In this document: in pieces, positions 6,485 to 23,336 of the stretch
Position numbering within the stretch: position 1 is the first letter of the stretch
Layout of the letters: each line of letters begins with the position of its first letter
Origin: Candidatus Thorarchaeota archaeon
GTDB taxonomy: Archaea > Asgardarchaeota > Thorarchaeia > Thorarchaeales > Thorarchaeaceae
Assembly (NCBI GenBank): GCA_048884785.1
Contig: JBHLQM010000024.1
Location: forward strand, 1-43,596
DNA length: 43,596 bases
Direction: 5' to 3'
Notes under the pieces: generated by a model
What the model was told of the DNA's origin: nothing
What the model saw: the letters and a program-made list of their open reading frames with translations, nothing else
Databases searched by the model: none
Program-made: the position numbers and the translations under genes

Positions 6485-7036
6485 ATGAAATCAAAGATAA
6501 TGGCCAAAGCCGCAGGCGTCACCAGTATTGTTGCCTTGGCATTCATTTTAGGGATAGTGTATATTCAGGCCACCGGAAATTGGCCCACTGCGCAGTTGCA
6601 ACGCGATGTACATCTGGGCGAATCTACAATAGAGCTCCCAGATTGGAGCTTCACCCTTTCGAATGATGAATCTGATCAATTGTCAAATTACAGGGGTCAG
6701 ATTTTGATAGTAGAACTGATGACCACATGGTGCACTTCCTGTAAGGCTCAAATTCCTCTGTTTGAGAATTTGTTGCTTATACGAAACGATATTCAGATTC
6801 TAGCTCTCACTGTGGACAAAGCTGAAACACCGCAGATGATGGCTGACTACAAAACTAGCGAGGGATTCAGTTGGCCATGCGGAGTTGAAGCGGAAGGAAC
6901 GTTCTCCCAATTCTTGGATGTAAGCCTAGTACCTACAATCATTATTATTGACCAATCCGGGTATCTCAGATGGATTCATGAAGGGACTTGGAGCTCAGCT
7001 TCACTTAACAGCACATTAGACTCGATTGGACTCTAG
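6485..7036 (+). CDS. Membrane-anchored TlpA/ResA-like thiol-disulfide oxidoreductase
   Basis: N-terminal TM helix, TWCTSC active site, VPTIIIIDQSG (cis-Pro loop); GAGGA SD before ATG 6485. Confidence 0.88.
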   Translation: MKSKIMAKAAGVTSIVALAFILGIVYIQATGNWPTAQLQRDVHLGESTIELPDWSFTLSNDESDQLSNYRGQILIVELMTTWCTSCKAQIPLFENLLLIRNDIQILALTVDKAETPQMMADYKTSEGFSWPCGVEAEGTFSQFLDVSLVPTIIIIDQSGYLRWIHEGTWSSASLNSTLDSIGL

Positions 7037-7569
7037 TCCACCCATTTCAGTGACTGCTGAATAGCTTTGAAAACGATGTTTGCGACTTTGGTTGGAGCTG
7101 CATTTCGATTTAAAGGGACATTCCATTCACTAGCAAGTACTTCCAATAGTTTTACGCAATCATCTGAATCTTGACAGCTAGCGCAATCACCATCATGGCC
7201 GAACCAAACTTGCACACCAATCCGTGGTGAGTAGGTTATAATCGTTTCAGATTTGAAGGCTCCAGAGTATCCTACTGCAAAACCATGAAATGAACTAATA
7301 TGATGTACCTGGACCCGATTGATATGGGCAGTATGCTCCATAAGATGACGAATCCTAGTTTCTGCAGTACGTAATGATTTGCTTACGAATGCTCGGGTGA
7401 CGTCGAGCTGATCTGCTATTTTCGATGGCAGCATTCCCTGTCGACGTTTAAGCCAGATTTCACTCTGTTTTTCACTTGGATAGCGGAGCATCCTGCTTTG
7501 TTTGAATTTGCTTCTTCCAATATTATCTTGCATAAAGAATGTGGCTCCATTCAGATTGCGTGCATACAT
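7033..7569 (-). CDS. Putative transcriptional regulator: HTH plus Cys-rich metal-binding domain
   Basis: SEKQSEIWLKRRQGMLPSKIADQLDVTRAFVSKSLRTAETRI is a sigma-4/LuxR-like HTH; HDGDCASCQDSDDC follows. True start may be ATG 7491. Confidence 0.65.
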   Translation of the reverse strand: MYARNLNGATFFMQDNIGRSKFKQSRMLRYPSEKQSEIWLKRRQGMLPSKIADQLDVTRAFVSKSLRTAETRIRHLMEHTAHINRVQVHHISSFHGFAVGYSGAFKSETIITYSPRIGVQVWFGHDGDCASCQDSDDCVKLLEVLASEWNVPLNRNAAPTKVANIVFKAIQQSLKWVD

Positions 7570-7726
7570 TACTGTGTGGTCCTGAGATATAAGTTAACCT
7601 GTTATAGGCAACTGGTATTGTCAAAATGGCAAATAAACAGGATATGATTGATTATTTTGTCGAAATGCGCATCTATTAACCATTTAATGGCAATAGTTTA
7701 TATGCCTTGAAAACAAGCATACCCTG

Positions 7727-7894
7727 ATGGGTGCAGTGCGGGAATCGTGGTTGGCGGAGAGATCACGTAATTGAAGTAGCATAATGCGTGATGCTTCACA
7801 CGACTGTTAGCGGGATTTTCAAAGGTCTCTTCAATATTTTTGGTCCAACCGGGGGGAAATGGAGGACCAGGACCTCCTATGAGGTCCTACCTCC
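7727..7894 (+). ncRNA. Candidate structured small RNA
   Basis: TATA TTTATATG at 7697-7704 with no credible long downstream CDS. Long hairpin TCGTG/GGAG/ATCACGTA...TGCGTGAT/CTTC/CACGA (7745-7804) whose G-U pairs favour the + strand. Ends at a strong hairpin (7861-7894). Confidence 0.45.
7861..7894. terminator. Stem-loop, probably a bidirectional terminator
   Basis: GGAGG-acc-AGGACCTC-CTAT-GAGGTCCT-a-CCTCC, immediately after the stop of the minus-strand ECF gene. Confidence 0.7.
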
Positions 7895-7902
7895 AAATTC
7901 AT

Positions 7903-8532
7903 CTAGAAACTATCCTCAAATTCATCGGCTAATTCCTGAAGAACAGGCTCATGAATGCTATCGATTTGAAGTTTCATATCACCTGGAACCATTGTGTAGA
8001 TAATGGCGCCACCGAGTACATTGACCAAGGACTGAATGATATTCCAGGGCACCAATATCAGAGCAATTGCTGCAGCAGCATCGTATTCATATCCCCATAG
8101 AATTGGCAGCAATTGCAAGTTGACGAAATACATACCAATGCCGCAAAACAGGGATGCCAAGACTGCATACACAGCAATACGAGTCCTGAATGTTACATTT
8201 GTATTTCTAAGAAGTATCATACCAAGCGCAAGTGCCAGTATCTTGAATAGTTCTGCAGGGACTTTAAATAGAGCTCCAATGGGGTTTCTATATCCTATTG
8301 CAGCCCACATCACTCCTATTCCAACCAGAGAAAGAAACGTACCAAAGAAAAAGAAGATCAATACAAGTGGAATTCCTGTCCAATCCAATGTAAACTGCAC
8401 ACCCGGGATCCTTATGTCAGTTAATCCAACAATTGGAAACACCTCTAAAGCTATTACCATTGCCATGAATACAGATGTGACAGCAATAGTTCGGGAATCC
8501 AATTTGCGAGGTACTATGCCATATCTATGCAA
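7903..8532 (-). CDS. ECF transporter S-component (substrate unknown; RibU/PanT-like)
   Basis: SRTIAVTSVFMAMVIAL N-terminal helix, FTLDWTGIPLVL, about 6 TM helices, ILVPWNIIQSLVN; AGGAG SD. Confidence 0.8.
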   Translation of the reverse strand: MHRYGIVPRKLDSRTIAVTSVFMAMVIALEVFPIVGLTDIRIPGVQFTLDWTGIPLVLIFFFFGTFLSLVGIGVMWAAIGYRNPIGALFKVPAELFKILALALGMILLRNTNVTFRTRIAVYAVLASLFCGIGMYFVNLQLLPILWGYEYDAAAAIALILVPWNIIQSLVNVLGGAIIYTMVPGDMKLQIDSIHEPVLQELADEFEDSF

Positions 8533-8722
8533 TTGTCAGGCTCCTGTTTATGGATATTTTAAATGGTCTTGAAGGGCTCCTTCAATTCTAGGATAAAAAG
8601 AAGTCGATGCGGTTGCAGTGAATCTTCCTGTCGTGCATGAAGGGTATATCTTCAAGTGCTCGTTGGGACACAATAACCTCTTTCTATGAATGGGAGAATG
8701 AATTTTCAGCAAAGGCAAATAT

Positions 8723-8864
8723 ACCCAAGGGAGGCATAATGCGTGATTTGCAACTCCGGATTCTAACTGTTGCATATCTCATAGTGATTCTCCTCACACC
8801 CGCACTCTATGAGGCCTTCTAACCCAAGGTGGGATTATAGCATGCTGTGCATGCCTCCCTGGGT
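8723..8864 (+). promoter_or_regulatory. Fold-back RNA structure sequestering the SD of a micro-ORF
   Basis: ACCCAAGGGAGGCAT (8723-8737) pairs with ATGCCTCCCTGGGT (8851-8864): 14 bp with one bulged A. Internal stems TGCAAC/GTTGCA (8749-8774) and CTCATAG/CTATGAG (8778-8813). Confidence 0.65.
8739..8822 (+). CDS. 27-aa hydrophobic single-TM peptide (candidate type I toxin or leader peptide)
   Basis: GGGAGG SD (8729-8734) just before ATG 8739; MRDLQLRILTVAYLIVILLTPALYEAF*. It is the 3' half of track ORF 8637-8822. Confidence 0.6.
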   Translation: MRDLQLRILTVAYLIVILLTPALYEAF

Positions 8865-8960
8865 CCTACTCATTTCTTGAAAAACTTGGCATTACTTGCG
8901 GTTTCATACATATTGGAAATGCTTTTCATTCGATTAAGCACTTCCAACCGAGAGGAGAGA

Positions 8961-10709
8961 TTGATGTTTCTCACGCGCACTGAAGAATATCCCCTTGATC
9001 AGATCATTGACGTTGCTGCAGGCCGAACGCGTGCAGAGGTGGTTCTCAAAAATGCCAATGTTGTCAATGTTTTCAGCAATGAAATCATTGAGGGCGATGT
9101 TGCTATACATCGTGGCTTTATTGCTGGCGTTGGAGAATATGTAGGTAATCAGGTATATGACCTCGATGGAAAATATGTTGCTCCCTCATTTATTGATGGT
9201 CATGTCCATGTAGAATCTTCAATGGTAATGCCAATTCAATATGCACGTGCTGTTGTACCACACGGAACTGGTGCTGTTGTAGCCGACCCTCATGAGATTG
9301 CAAATGTGCTTGGTATGGAGGGAATTATGTACATGAGCAAGAGTATGCGCGGAGGCCCTCTGGAATTCTACATAATGCTTCCATCATGTGTTCCTTCGAC
9401 CGATATGGAAACAAATGGAGTTACACTTGATTTCCTTGATATAAAGCCATTAATGACCGAACACTATGTATTGGGACTTGCTGAAGCCATGAATTATCCC
9501 GGAGTGATTTTTAAGGATCCGGAAATTCTTGAAAAGATACAGGTTTCATTGAAGATGGGCAAGAGGATTGATGGACATGCACCTGATATTTCTTCATATG
9601 ATTTGAATGCCTACGCGGCAGCTAGAATATCTTCAGAGCACGAATGCACATCACTTGAGGAAGCGAAGAAAAAGCTCAGAGTTGGAATGCACATTCATAT
9701 TCGAGAAGGCTCTACGGCCAAAAACCTCAGAGACCTTGTTGGAATTGTGACTCCTGAGTCTGCAATGTTTTGCAGCTTCGTAACTGACGATAGAAACACA
9801 CTGGACTTAATCACCAAAGGTCATCTTGACAGTATGATTCGGGATGCAATTGGTTATGGCCTTGATCCTATTTTGGCAATCAAAGTCTGCACACTCTCTA
9901 CCGCCAGTCACTATGGGCTTCAATACCTAGGCGCAGTTGCCCCGGGATATCATGCCGATGTTGTAGTTCTTGATTCACTAGACAAAATTGGAGTCGAGAT
10001 GGTCTTCAAACAGGGAACATTGGTAGCTCAGAATGGGAAACTCGTTGGCGATTTTGGGGTTCAAGAGCAACCTCGTTTGAGGCGTTCAGTGAATATTCAT
10101 TGGCTAGAGCCAGAGGATTTTCAGGTAAAAGCCACTGCCGGCCAAATGAATGTCATTGGAATTATTCCAGATCAGATTATAACGAATAGATTGATAGAGG
10201 ATACAAAGACCGCAGATGGATTGGCAGTTCCTGACATTGACAGAGATATCTCAAAAATTGCTATCATTGAACGTCATAACGCAACCCCTCCGAAAGGTAT
10301 TGGTTTTGTTAAGGGATTAGGTATCAAAGATGGAGCAATGGTTTCTTCTATTGCGCATGATAGCCACAATATTGTTGTAGTTGCAACAAATGATGAAGAC
10401 CTAATTGCCGCCGCCGTTCAGGTTGTTAGAATGCAAGGCGGTATTGCAGTAGTTCAAGGAGGAGAAGTTATGTCTTCCCTTCCTCTTCCAATTGCTGGTC
10501 TTATGTCTGATCAGCCATTAGAAAATGTAAGTGAGAAGCTTGTTGAATTGAAGGAGGCTGCCAAGAAGCTTGGTAGCACTCTGAATGAGCCCTTTATGAC
10601 AATGGCATTTCTCTCTCTACCAGTAATACCCAAATTAAAGATAACAGACAAAGGGCTTGTGGATGTTGACCGCTTCCGTTTCATAGATCTCTTTGATACG
10701 AGTGAATAG
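8961..10709 (+). CDS. ade: Adenine deaminase
   Basis: PSFIDGHVHVESSM, VADPHEIANVLG, LAEAMNYPGV, IDGHAP, IREGSTAKNL, VTDDR, AHDSHN and FLSLPVIP; GAGGAG SD before TTG 8961/ATG 8964. Confidence 0.96.
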   Translation: MMFLTRTEEYPLDQIIDVAAGRTRAEVVLKNANVVNVFSNEIIEGDVAIHRGFIAGVGEYVGNQVYDLDGKYVAPSFIDGHVHVESSMVMPIQYARAVVPHGTGAVVADPHEIANVLGMEGIMYMSKSMRGGPLEFYIMLPSCVPSTDMETNGVTLDFLDIKPLMTEHYVLGLAEAMNYPGVIFKDPEILEKIQVSLKMGKRIDGHAPDISSYDLNAYAAARISSEHECTSLEEAKKKLRVGMHIHIREGSTAKNLRDLVGIVTPESAMFCSFVTDDRNTLDLITKGHLDSMIRDAIGYGLDPILAIKVCTLSTASHYGLQYLGAVAPGYHADVVVLDSLDKIGVEMVFKQGTLVAQNGKLVGDFGVQEQPRLRRSVNIHWLEPEDFQVKATAGQMNVIGIIPDQIITNRLIEDTKTADGLAVPDIDRDISKIAIIERHNATPPKGIGFVKGLGIKDGAMVSSIAHDSHNIVVVATNDEDLIAAAVQVVRMQGGIAVVQGGEVMSSLPLPIAGLMSDQPLENVSEKLVELKEAAKKLGSTLNEPFMTMAFLSLPVIPKLKITDKGLVDVDRFRFIDLFDTSE

Positions 10710-22209: not shown

Positions 22210-23336
22210 TGAGCGATGGGATATCTTCCTTTCTTCTCAGCATAATCGAACAATTCGACCACCTTCTCAGGAGGTGATTCAGGTTGAAGATTGTGTGCTG
22301 GAGCTAGTATATAACCACCATTAGGGGCGAGGGCTCTAATCCTTGTATCTACCTCGTTTCTTACTTCCTGCAAGGTACTATCCGGAGTCATGGCATGCTG
22401 TAAATCAATACCTCCGTGGAAAGTAAGCCTATCCCCATATCTTTCTTTTAGTAGGAAGGAATCCATCCCTTTCGCAAGAGGCTGAATAGGGTTCAGGATA
22501 TCCACCTCAACTTCAATTAGGTCTTCAATCATTGGTTCAATTGCACCACAACTGTGGTAGAGTATTTTCACTCCAGGAGCGCGTTTATGAATATCACCAT
22601 ATATTTTCTTGTGCATATGCTTTATTTTTTCCCGATACATCTTTGGGCTCATGAGGAGACCGTGCTGATGGCCTAGATCGTCCCCAACTTGAACAATGTC
22701 TAGAAAGTCTCCAACTCCATCAAGCAGAATCCCGTTCATATCCAGAGCCAAATCCATGGATTTCCTCATCATTGCATTGGCAAGATCAGGCCTTTTCATC
22801 ATATCCAAAAGGAATTGCTGAAAACCTCTCAAATAGTGGGCAACTATCTCAAATACACCCCATGGTCCTCCAACCATCCCGACAACCGCATAATCTGTTT
22901 CTTCGTGAAGGTATTTGGCCCATTCAACAACTCCCTCCATACGGGACGGATCTTCTGGATCTGGCCATTCATATTCGAGAACCTGCTCAACTTCTGTGAA
23001 TTCAGCCCAAGGATAATGCGTGATTTCCCAGTATGGTCCCATCCACTTACCGCGGAATCCGAATTCGGAATCAGTTGTCCCATCGGGGTATGTCTTCTCT
23101 TTGAAGCTTGCTGCGGGATTCATGTATACTCTTCTGAAGTCAATATGCAGCCTTCTAAGAAACTCCTCAGACACTTTCAATGGAGCCATTATACCCCACT
23201 CCTGATTCTCTTTTGCAGATATGCCTAGGTAGTCTCTGGTTCTTTCATAAGCCGCTGGTGTTGCCCATATGTCTATAGGAACTCTATCAGGTTCTTCGTG
23301 AGTTACAGCCTTGTGAAACCTTTCTCGGGGCTTCAT
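22206..23336 (-). CDS. Uroporphyrinogen decarboxylase/MtaA-CmuA family protein
   Basis: MKPRERF...EPDRVP, GDDLGHQHGLLMSP, YHSCG, DILNPIQ, FHGGID, GGYILAPAHN. Confidence 0.9.
   Translation of the reverse strand: MKPRERFHKAVTHEEPDRVPIDIWATPAAYERTRDYLGISAKENQEWGIMAPLKVSEEFLRRLHIDFRRVYMNPAASFKEKTYPDGTTDSEFGFRGKWMGPYWEITHYPWAEFTEVEQVLEYEWPDPEDPSRMEGVVEWAKYLHEETDYAVVGMVGGPWGVFEIVAHYLRGFQQFLLDMMKRPDLANAMMRKSMDLALDMNGILLDGVGDFLDIVQVGDDLGHQHGLLMSPKMYREKIKHMHKKIYGDIHKRAPGVKILYHSCGAIEPMIEDLIEVEVDILNPIQPLAKGMDSFLLKERYGDRLTFHGGIDLQHAMTPDSTLQEVRNEVDTRIRALAPNGGYILAPAHNLQPESPPEKVVELFDYAEKKGRYPIAH

What the first reader, a model, noticed from the sequence alone, without database searches (positions are those of the whole stretch)
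7697..7894. Orphan promoter driving a structured candidate sRNA linked in sequence to the micro-ORF (possible antitoxin)
Seen: a good TATA (TTTATATG, 7697-7704) points into a region with only tiny ORFs, a long G-U-containing hairpin (7745-7804) and a terminal hairpin (7861-7894). It shares the exact 14-mer GCATAATGCGTGAT (7779-7792) with the micro-ORF start region (8734-8747). Its 5' arm is complementary to the peptide mRNA in three places: AGTGCGGG (7735-7742) to CCCGCACT (8799-8806); GGAGAGATCAC (7756-7766) to GTGATTCTCC (8784-8793, one bulge); ATCACGTA (7762-7769) to TGCGTGAT overlapping the start codon (8740-8747, one G-U). Inference: a trans-acting antisense regulator 1 kb from its target, or a diverged sibling locus. 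The individual matches are short, so chance is not excluded.
Basis: partly seen in the sequence, partly recalled or inferred. Interest (0 to 1): 0.72.

Follow-up and report, generated by a model that had tools for sequence, protein, structure and literature searches.

The report
Promoter-driven mirror of C-rich sRNA
The promoter and its short G-rich transcript look real and are kept in seven related Asgard (Thorarchaeota) genomes, but the RNA is not tied to the neighbouring mini-ORF: its start is the mirror image of the working end of a multi-copy C-rich small RNA, so it is most likely a leftover mRNA leader that those small RNAs bind (a target turned decoy).

Summary
The link to the micro-ORF does not hold. 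A repeated 14-mer is what chance gives in this window. The 14-mer is not conserved at either site in relatives. The A-to-micro-ORF duplex is no better than shuffled controls and is absent in two sister genomes.

What is real:
- A TATA box (7697-7704) abuts a TTAACC-N7-GGCAAT operator, divergent from an HTH-regulator gene. It is conserved in seven Thorarchaeota genomes.
- An invariant leader follows (GGGAAUCGUGG..GGAGA, 7740-7762).
- A 3' GGAGG/CCUCC hairpin is kept by compensatory changes.

The leader is the reverse complement of the loop and 3' strand of a multi-copy C-rich small RNA. This scan has already noted that family on other Thorarchaeota DNA; the element studied here had not been noted.

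In one relative the leader heads an intact beta-helix secreted-protein gene. In the window that gene is dead: start codon lost, a stop inside the 14-mer, domain deleted.

Best reading (about 0.45): an mRNA leader that was a target of the C-rich sRNAs and survives as a non-coding decoy. There are no expression data.

The parts
7594..7611 (.). Operator copy 1, TTAACC-N7-GGCAA. It lies next to the TATA-like ATATAAG (7587-7593) of the minus-strand HTH-regulator gene, whose ATG is at 7569.
   Evidence: Conserved in all orthologous loci. The same motif occurs in pairs upstream of many paralogous regulator genes. That the regulator binds it is inferred.
7676..7694 (.). Operator copy 2, TTAACC-N7-GGCAAT. 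It ends 2 nt before the + strand TATA box.
   Evidence: Invariant columns in alignment A1. No SNP here in two close strains, while the spacer 7620-7668 carries 7.
7697..7704 (+).
   Evidence: TTTATA is invariant in six loci; G001 has CTTATAAG. The expected start lies about 25-30 nt downstream, at the conserved (A/U)NGGGU (7727-7732); this is inferred.
7727..7766 (+). Conserved G-rich leader: GGGUG, GGGAAUCGUGG (7740-7750) and GGAGAGA (7756-7762). It is the reverse complement of the 3' closing strand and C-rich loop of the multi-copy sRNA family.
   Evidence: GGGAATCGTG is invariant in 6 of 6 loci. A profile of this region found 15 copies of the sRNA family in other genomes. Duplex with the sRNA loop is -26 to -39 kcal/mol in all seven genomes. 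It ranks 15 of 6737 seed-bearing windows genome-wide.
7731..7811 (-). Degenerate full-length look-alike of the C-rich sRNA domain, with the closing helix broken and the inner hairpin ATCACG/CGTGAT. The 14-mer 7779-7792 is the loop plus one stem strand of that hairpin.
   Evidence: Best hit of sRNA model R2 in 64 kb, but only 13.8 bits, E 0.35, with several non-standard pairs. nhmmer gives 8.5 bits, E 5.6 genome-wide, covering TCAATTACG and ACCACGATTCCC.
7770..7784 (+). Dead start of the former secreted-protein ORF: ATT (7770-7772) where G003 has ATG, then an in-frame TAA (7782-7784) inside the 14-mer.
   Evidence: Alignment with G003 and G006. The G006 ORF of 286 aa carries Pfam Beta_helix at 31.4 bits against a cutoff of 25.9.
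7837..7841 (+). U5 run, a possible archaeal termination site that would give an RNA of about 110 nt.
   Evidence: Read from the sequence only. Not conserved and not tested.
7851..7877 (+). Second conserved G-rich block: a G6 run, then a GGAGG (7861-7865) / CCUCC (7873-7877) hairpin. An alternative 8-bp hairpin is AGGACCUC (7869-7876) / GAGGUCCU (7881-7888).
   Evidence: RNAalifold on seven loci gives 9 pairs, 3 of them with compensatory double changes. U-G and G-U pairs are valid only on the + strand. A U5-6 run follows the hairpin in G005 and G004.

Best explanation
The gap 7570-7902 holds a divergent promoter pair. Both promoters are flanked by TTAACC-N7-GGCAAT sites, which the neighbouring HTH regulator probably binds.

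The + strand promoter (TATA 7697-7704) starts an RNA near 7727. Its first 40 nt or so (GGGUG...GGGAAUCGUGG...GGAGAGA) are the reverse complement of the unpaired C-rich, anti-Shine-Dalgarno loop and 3' closing strand of a multi-copy Thorarchaeota small RNA. This genome carries at least four copies of that small RNA.

Ancestrally, and still in relative G006, this leader was the 5' UTR of a secreted beta-helix protein mRNA and carried its ribosome-binding site. The C-rich sRNAs could pair with it over 12-20 bp and block translation.

In the window the coding part has decayed: ATG has become ATT, a TAA stop follows, and the beta-helix domain is deleted. The promoter, the leader and a 3' G-run plus GGAGG hairpin are kept. 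The RNA now most likely acts as a non-coding pairing partner (decoy or sponge) of the C-rich sRNAs, under the control of the HTH regulator.

Shown: the conservation, the complementarity and the ORF decay. Inferred: transcription, regulator binding, pairing in the cell and any titration effect.
For: - Promoter, operator and leader are conserved in seven orthologous loci, although the flanking proteins are only 52-58% identical.
- The spacer between TATA and start, and the region after the leader, are not conserved.
- A sequence profile of the orthologous promoter and leader (R1) hit 15 further loci in 13 genomes of 4 genera at E from 2e-4 to 9e-3 per genome. Apart from one weak match of G003 (C47) whose sequence was not inspected, these are copies of one 86-nt RNA, matched only over the leader part of the profile.
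- That RNA is a real structured RNA on the opposite, C-rich strand. Its closing helix has 13 pairs, 7 with compensatory changes, and is 98% paired.
- Copies occur in every genome that has element A.
- The duplex between leader and sRNA loop is -26 to -39 kcal/mol in all seven genomes; the fraction of shuffles as good is 0.012-0.15.
- AAUCGUGG-type words are not enriched before start codons generally, so this match is specific to this locus.
- The G006 locus has the same leader before an intact 286-aa Beta_helix ORF. Its N-terminus aligns with paralogues.
- G003 has an internal deletion plus a stop. The window, G001, G004, G005 and G013 have no ORF.
- The 3' hairpin covaries, with G-U pairs on the + strand.
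- Close strains show 1 SNP in 7693-7902, against 7 in the 49-nt spacer 7620-7668 and about 14 in the membrane gene.
Against: - There are no expression data for either strand; no RNA run holds this DNA.
- The window's match to the sRNA model is weak on its own (13.8 bits, E 0.35; nhmmer E 5.6).
- G-rich against C-rich shuffles already give strong duplexes, so the per-genome significance is modest.
- Genome-wide, the leader is only the 15th best partner of the sRNA loop, or about 9th once the antisense strands of the sRNA genes themselves are set aside.
- There are only seven orthologues and they are related, so the counts are not independent.
- CCC of the complementary sRNA segment lies inside the sRNA's own closing helix.
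- Element A occurs in two genera only, whereas the sRNA family is far wider. The invariance of the sRNA loop therefore cannot be due to A.
Confidence: 0.45

Rival explanations
1. It is an inert relic. The stretch is only the decaying 5' end of a lost beta-helix gene. The promoter and operators are kept because the HTH regulator's own control needs the paired operator layout. The leader and hairpin blocks have simply not yet eroded, or they are DNA sites.
For: The ORF is intact only in G006 and visibly broken elsewhere. The G-run and GGAGG block corresponds to codons (GETGG) also seen in a paralogue's N-terminus. The middle of the transcript is unconserved.
Against: An 11-mer stays invariant across loci whose neighbouring proteins are about 55% identical, and in a second genus (G013), while adjacent non-coding DNA is scrambled. 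The hairpin is maintained by compensatory changes where no frame exists. Strain-level SNPs avoid the whole transcript.
Confidence: 0.25
2. It is a minus-strand gene. The element is a diverged member of the C-rich sRNA family transcribed from the minus strand (about 7895 to 7727), perhaps as the 3' UTR of the membrane-protein gene. It would display CUCUCCGCCAACCACGAUUCCC and CCUCCAUUUCCCCCC as anti-SD tracts.
For: The family model aligns end to end on the minus strand, 7731-7811. The family is transcribed from its C-rich strand. The membrane gene ends at 7903, directly upstream on that strand.
Against: - The 13-bp closing helix that defines the family is broken here.
- The anti-SD CCUCC is the least conserved part, lost in G004 and altered in the window, while CCACGAUUCCC is kept.
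- There is no family-type TATA (TTTAATAAG) upstream on the minus strand.
- In G006 and G003 that position is inside a + strand ORF.
- G-U pairs in three helices would become A-C mismatches on the minus strand (and the hairpin 7762-7792).
- The hairpin plus U-run sits on the + strand in G005 and G004.
Confidence: 0.12
3. One reading: a trans-acting antisense RNA (antitoxin) that pairs with the micro-ORF RNA at 8723-8822, or a sibling copy of that locus.
For: The exact 14-mer and two collinear complementary blocks do exist, giving a composite duplex of -26.8 kcal/mol. The micro-ORF region carries a conserved C-rich block, UUCUCCUCAC (8788-8797), that any G-rich RNA can touch.
Against: The 14-mer is at chance level and unconserved at both sites. 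The energy is no better than shuffles. There is no comparable pairing in G005 or G004. The ORF is not conserved (earlier notes e1-5662988 and e1-5662989). The sRNA model finds nothing in 8533-8963.
Confidence: 0.04
4. A small protein is encoded, for example the 71-aa frame 7788-8003 or a leaderless peptide starting at ATG 7727.
For: Open frames exist. GPTGGKW in the 71-aa frame recalls GETGGKW of the G006 protein.
Against: By nucleotide alignment the homologous frame is a different one (7840-7932). Indels shift the frame between orthologues. The ATG at 7727 is absent in G006 and G003 and is followed by a stop after two codons in G004. The end of the 71-aa frame is merely the antisense of the membrane protein's C-terminus.
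Confidence: 0.04

Closest known systems
RosA, the RNA sponge of the C-rich sRNAs RoxS and FsrA in Bacillus subtilis (PMC8216469); RsaI of Staphylococcus aureus is discussed in the same paper
   Same: A short transcript with its own promoter under a transcription factor. It has G-rich regions complementary to the C-rich, SD-mimicking regions of the sRNAs. It has no conserved ORF (RosA features read).
   Different: RosA is experimentally proven and is a stand-alone gene. Here nothing is expressed or tested. The G-rich leader matches the sRNA over a much longer stretch and looks like an inverted copy of the sRNA gene. The locus is a former mRNA leader, and the organism is an archaeon.
mRNA-derived decoys and target mimics of bacterial sRNAs (chbBC trap for ChiX; SroC for GcvB); recalled from my own knowledge, not read here
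   Same: A piece of an mRNA that carries an sRNA target site acts as a titrator rather than, or as well as, a regulated target.
   Different: In those cases the parent mRNAs are still functional genes. Here the parent ORF is lost in five of the seven genomes and disrupted by a deletion and stop in G003; only G006 keeps it intact.
Multi-copy C-rich (anti-SD loop) small RNA family of Thorarchaeota, uncatalogued; noted earlier in this scan (e1-5563726, e1-5549894, e1-5663094)
   Same: They share a motif of 36-45 nt, and up to about 80 nt in the window, including CCACGAUUCCC and UCAAUUACG.
   Different: Element A carries the motif on the opposite strand relative to its promoter. It lacks the 13-14-bp closing helix and the invariant CCUCC, and it scores far below family members (13.8 bits against 31-111 bits).
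   Same: A small RNA near a short hydrophobic ORF, with patches of complementarity.
   Different: The ORF is not conserved, the complementarity is not conserved and is not above chance, and the RNA is trans-encoded 1 kb away.

Membership tests
Type I toxin-antitoxin pair (antisense RNA antitoxin) | A conserved small hydrophobic toxin ORF. | tested here: not met
   The 27-aa frame 8739-8822 has no counterpart in G005, G004 or G007. Only nucleotide blocks are kept. This agrees with earlier notes e1-5662988 and e1-5662989.
Type I toxin-antitoxin pair (antisense RNA antitoxin) | Antitoxin-to-toxin-mRNA complementarity that is above chance and conserved. | tested here: not met
   Shuffles are as good in 72% of trials. 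G005 and G004 give fractions of 0.67 and 0.25. The 14-mer is unconserved.
Type I toxin-antitoxin pair (antisense RNA antitoxin) | Toxicity of the peptide and its rescue by the RNA. | not testable with these tools
   This needs expression experiments.
Thorarchaeota C-rich sRNA family (model R2) | A 13-14-bp closing helix enclosing the domain. | tested here: not met
   The family has 13 pairs, 98% paired, 7 covarying. In the window several of these pairs are non-standard.
Thorarchaeota C-rich sRNA family (model R2) | The invariant loop CUCCCCCCUCCUACCACGAUUCCC. | tested here: inconclusive
   CCACGAUUCCC is kept in all orthologues. The CCUCC part is altered in the window (CUCUCCGCC) and lost in G004.
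Thorarchaeota C-rich sRNA family (model R2) | Transcription of the C-rich strand from an upstream TTTAATAAG-type TATA box. | tested here: not met
   The conserved TATA box at A drives the G-rich strand. There is no such box on the minus strand at 7880-7960.
Thorarchaeota C-rich sRNA family (model R2) | A significant score against the family model. | tested here: not met
   13.8 bits, E 0.35; nhmmer E 5.6. True members score 31-111 bits.
RNA sponge or anti-sRNA of C-rich sRNAs (RosA type) | G-rich regions complementary to the sRNA's C-rich regions. | tested here: met
   -26 to -39 kcal/mol in seven genomes. The two conserved blocks of the transcript are both G-rich.
RNA sponge or anti-sRNA of C-rich sRNAs (RosA type) | An independently transcribed, non-coding RNA. 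| tested here: inconclusive
   The TATA box and start region are conserved and no frame is conserved. No RNA data exist.
RNA sponge or anti-sRNA of C-rich sRNAs (RosA type) | It lowers the level or activity of the sRNA in the cell. | not testable with these tools
   This needs genetics or RNA measurements in an uncultured archaeon or in a surrogate host.
Any Rfam family | A match to a curated covariance model. | tested here: not met
   No match at gathering thresholds in the window. Only chance-level matches at E up to 10 in 7400-9000. No tRNA.
Tfx family DNA-binding protein (the neighbouring regulator) | A score above the curated cutoff of TIGR00721 / PRK03975. | tested here: not met
   14.5-17.2 bits against cutoffs of 60-168, and only over the HTH at residues 32-91. 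No Pfam family. It is best called an HTH regulator with a faint Tfx-like helix-turn-helix.

The most novel reading that the evidence does not exclude
An Asgard archaeon keeps a dedicated anti-sRNA. This is a regulator-controlled G-rich RNA that arose from an inverted copy of a C-rich small-RNA gene fused to an mRNA leader. It outlived its protein-coding gene and now titrates the multi-copy anti-Shine-Dalgarno sRNAs. It would be the first sponge-type layer of RNA control proposed for Asgard archaea.
Probability: 0.3. Interest if true: 0.7.

Novelty: new variant of a known kind. Interest (0 to 1): 0.45.

Why it matters
RNA-based regulation in Asgard archaea, the closest prokaryotic relatives of eukaryotes, is almost unexplored. 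My literature search found no paper on Thorarchaeota small RNAs. This scan has repeatedly met multi-copy C-rich, anti-Shine-Dalgarno small RNAs in Thorarchaeota, but never a partner for them.

This locus offers a concrete, testable partner. It has an extended match to the invariant loop of the sRNA, a dedicated promoter under a local regulator, and a natural series across relatives: an intact target mRNA in one genome, a broken ORF in another, and a pure non-coding RNA in five. That series would show how an sRNA target can turn into a decoy.

The result also removes a false lead. There is no evidence for an archaeal type I toxin-antitoxin pair here.

Tried and rejected
- Rfam at gathering and permissive thresholds, and ARAGORN: nothing.
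- RNAduplex on the full lengths of A and B gave an artefactual all-paired duplex equal to shuffles, so I replaced it with 40-nt local windows.
- The bacterial promoter/terminator scan does not apply to an archaeon.
- The metagenome scan for the operator plus TATA pattern returned 4 chance loci and no new orthologue.
- Sequencing runs: no RNA holder is listed. DNA contigs of four runs gave only strain SNPs at low depth.
- I first thought the window shares G003's internal deletion (SY...RNYPQI against SY...DRYPQI). I rejected this because RNYPQI is the antisense of the membrane protein's last codons (DEFEDSF*), and a 17-mer there is locally duplicated (D4).
- I first read GPTGGKW (frame 7788) as synonymous-only conservation of GETGGKW. 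I rejected this because the nucleotide alignment puts the homologous codons in another frame (7840-7932).
- Leaderless peptide from ATG 7727: the frames differ between orthologues.
- Paralogous regulator genes in this genome (C29, C113, C126) have no element A upstream.
- The genome-wide motif search shows the 14-mer is not a repeat family.
- Test of B (8533-8963) as a member of the C-rich sRNA family: no hit.

Full report
**Context.** The window is a whole 43.6-kb contig (C24) of a 3.6-Mb, 44% GC assembly. Earlier notes of this scan place it in Thorarchaeota, an Asgard lineage. The finding lies in the 333-bp gap between two minus-strand genes. One is a 178-aa protein (7033-7569) whose only family signal is a faint, sub-threshold Tfx/sigma-70-like helix-turn-helix. 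The other is a 209-aa membrane protein (7903-8532). The micro-ORF (8739-8822) lies in the next gap, between the membrane gene and adenine deaminase (8964-10709).

**Checking the observation.**
- TTTATATG at 7697-7704.
- The 14-mer at 7779-7792 and 8734-8747. These are its only two copies in the genome.
- The three complementary patches.

Their weight is small:
- The window contains 9 repeated 14-mers where Markov shuffles give 6.7. A pair within 1.2 kb appears in 24% of shuffles.
- The third patch is not independent, because ATCACGTA pairs with the A copy of the 14-mer in A's own hairpin.
- The fold of 7727-7894 is unremarkable (z = -1.55).
- Rfam and tRNA searches find nothing.

**Comparison with relatives.** The gene order thioredoxin-like / regulator / gap / membrane gene / adenine deaminase is kept in the same genus. 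Aligning the gap from five genomes, and later seven with G001 and G013 of another genus, shows four conserved blocks in otherwise scrambled DNA:
- (a) ATATAAG plus TTAACC-N7-GGCAA, next to the regulator's start.
- (c) About 25-30 nt further on, (A/U)NGGGU...GGGAAUCGUGG...GGAGA.
- (d) A G-run followed by a GGAGG...CCUCC hairpin.

The TTAACC-N7-GGCAAT motif also occurs in pairs upstream of many paralogues of the regulator, which is a multi-copy family. It is therefore probably the regulator's operator; that is inferred.

The 14-mer region and the long hairpin 7745-7804 are not conserved. In the other gap, the 14-mer and the ORF are not conserved either. Only a covarying closing helix and the block TTCTCCTCAC(A/G)CC are kept, which agrees with earlier notes e1-5662988 and e1-5662989. 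The A-to-B complementarity is not found in G005 or G004. The antitoxin reading therefore fails on chance, on energy and on conservation.

**Coding or not.** In G006 the same promoter and leader precede an intact 286-aa ORF. It has a signal-peptide-like N-terminus, a Pfam Beta_helix domain above threshold and a C-terminal hydrophobic tail. Its N-terminus aligns with paralogues elsewhere in the window's genome, so this is a real gene and the leader is its 5' UTR with GGAGG before the start.

G003 has lost the beta-helix domain and has an in-frame stop. The window has ATT where G003 has ATG (7770-7772), then TAA (7782-7784, inside the 14-mer), and no domain. G001, G004, G005 and G013 have no ORF at all. 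Indels shift the frame between orthologues in both conserved blocks, and the ATG at 7727 is not conserved. In most genomes, then, what is kept is RNA or DNA sequence, not protein.

**The unexpected relative.** I built a sequence-only profile of the promoter and leader from six loci (R1) and searched 86 genomes of the family. It found the orthologous loci and also 15 other loci in 13 genomes of 4 genera. Each of these matched only the leader part of the profile, at E from 2e-4 to 9e-3 per genome. With one exception, a weak match of G003 (C47) whose sequence was not inspected, the loci examined are copies of one 86-nt RNA.

On the strand opposite to the leader, that RNA has:
- a 13-bp closing helix that is 98% paired, with 7 pairs showing compensatory double changes and several G-U pairs;
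- an inner UUUCGU/ACGAAA hairpin;
- an invariant unpaired CUCCCCCCUCCUACCACGAUUCCC tract.

It is absent from Rfam. Earlier notes of this scan describe it as a multi-copy, promoter-bearing, C-rich anti-Shine-Dalgarno small RNA of Thorarchaeota. I confirmed its strand and structure myself.

The window's genome has copies on C41, C20, C117 and C55, and every genome with element A has 1-8 copies.

Element A's leader is thus the reverse complement of the sRNA's loop and 3' closing strand. In the window the resemblance runs through the inner hairpin: TCAATTACG is shared, and the stem is changed to ATCACG/CGTGAT. The 14-mer is simply that hairpin's loop plus one stem strand. On its own the window's match is weak (13.8 bits, E 0.35; nhmmer E 5.6). 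The case for the relationship rests on the profile search, which returned almost nothing except copies of this family.

**Which strand.** The family is read from its C-rich strand, which would be the window's minus strand. At element A, however, several points favour the + strand:
- The conserved TATA box and start region drive the G-rich + strand.
- The family's closing helix is broken.
- The anti-SD CCUCC is the least conserved part.
- In G006 and G003 the upstream side on the minus strand lies inside a + strand ORF.
- Hairpin (d) has 3 of 9 pairs with compensatory changes, plus U-G and G-U pairs valid only on the + strand.
- G-U pairs also occur in the window's hairpin 7762-7792 and in G013's hairpin.
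- Hairpin (d) is followed by U5-6 in G005 and G004, a terminator-like arrangement for the + strand.

I therefore read A as a + strand RNA of roughly 110-170 nt.

**Mechanism.** The + strand leader can pair with the sRNA loop at -26 to -39 kcal/mol in all seven genomes; the fraction of shuffles as good is 0.012-0.15. In a genome-wide screen it ranks 15th of 6737 seed-bearing windows, and six of the better ones are the antisense strands of the sRNA genes themselves. Words such as AAUCGUGG are not enriched before start codons in general; only the SD-like words are. The match to that part of the loop is therefore a peculiarity of this locus.

The simplest history is as follows. An inverted copy of an sRNA gene became the 5' UTR of a secreted-protein gene, which made that mRNA a strong target of the C-rich sRNAs. 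When the ORF was lost, the promoter, the leader and the G-rich 3' hairpin stayed. This fits a role as a pairing partner (decoy or sponge) under the local HTH regulator.

RosA of Bacillus subtilis is the closest worked example. [quoted passage not shown] Close strains in public sediment metagenomes show 1 SNP across 7693-7902, against 7 in the 49-nt spacer between the operators and about 14 in the membrane gene. That is weak but consistent support for constraint.

**Limits.** There are no RNA data. Only seven related orthologues are available. The duplex statistics are modest because G-rich and C-rich sequences pair readily. The alternative that the element is an inert relic, kept partly for promoter architecture, cannot be dismissed (I put it at 0.25). 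The minus-strand reading stays at about 0.12, the antitoxin reading at about 0.04 and a coding reading at about 0.04.

**Verdict.** The promoter, the RNA and the terminal hairpin hold up. The link to the micro-ORF is chance or species-specific. The element is a new variant of a known kind: an sRNA target or decoy. It is of moderate interest because it gives the orphan C-rich sRNAs of Asgard archaea a first concrete partner to test.

Noticed in passing
window 7594-7611 and 7676-7694; also loci L016, L021, L023, L025, L026, L030: TTAACC-N7-GGCAA(T) occurs in pairs upstream of many members of a multi-copy family of about 160-180-aa HTH proteins (4 copies in this genome, up to 7 in relatives). It is probably the family's operator for autoregulation.
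   Followed up: partly
G000 contigs C41:11732-11823(-), C20:45901-45984(+), C117:164-247(+), C55:15288-15369(+); weaker look-alikes at C112:~6127 and C123:~41: Copies of the uncatalogued C-rich small RNA family in the window's own genome. It has a 13-bp covarying closing helix and the invariant loop CUCCCCCCUCCUACCACGAUU. There is no Rfam match.
   Followed up: partly
L002:636-1496 (minus strand; genome G006) and L003 (G003): G006 keeps an intact 286-aa secreted beta-helix (NosD-like) protein gene behind the same leader. G003 has the same gene with the beta-helix domain deleted and an in-frame stop. Together with the window and its ORF-less relatives, these form a natural decay series.
   Followed up: yes
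window 8917-8931: GGAAAT(G/C)CTTTTCAT, about 35 nt before the adenine deaminase start, is conserved in G005, G004 and also in G007 of another genus, which lacks the rest of the gap. It may be a regulatory site for the deaminase gene.
   Followed up: no
window 8725-8737 / 8851-8863 and 8785-8800: The long-range helix around the micro-ORF covaries (G005: GACTTGGGGCGAG / CTCGCCCCAAGTC; G004: GACCTGAAGTG / CACTCCAGGTC). It encloses a conserved C-rich block TTCTCCTCAC(A/G)CC. This is the same build as the C-rich sRNAs, but the family model finds no match.
   Followed up: partly
window 7887-7903 and 7910-7926: A 17-nt near-repeat (CTACCTCCAAATTCATC / CTATCCTCAAATTCATC) straddles the stop codon of the membrane gene. 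It looks like a small local duplication.
   Followed up: no
window 7560-8015 in strain contigs of runs X6 and X10: SNPs between close strains cluster in the spacer between the two operators (7 in 7620-7668). They avoid the operators, the TATA box and the transcript, where the only change is T7807C, which turns a predicted G-U pair into G-C.
   Followed up: partly
L043 (genome G001): In G001 the membrane-protein gene is missing between element A and adenine deaminase, so element A does not depend on that gene.
   Followed up: no
window 8736-8749 and 23013-23026: ATAATGCGTGATTT is shared by the micro-ORF start and a site at 23013. This is another chance-level 14-mer and shows how easily such matches arise in this window.
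   Followed up: no
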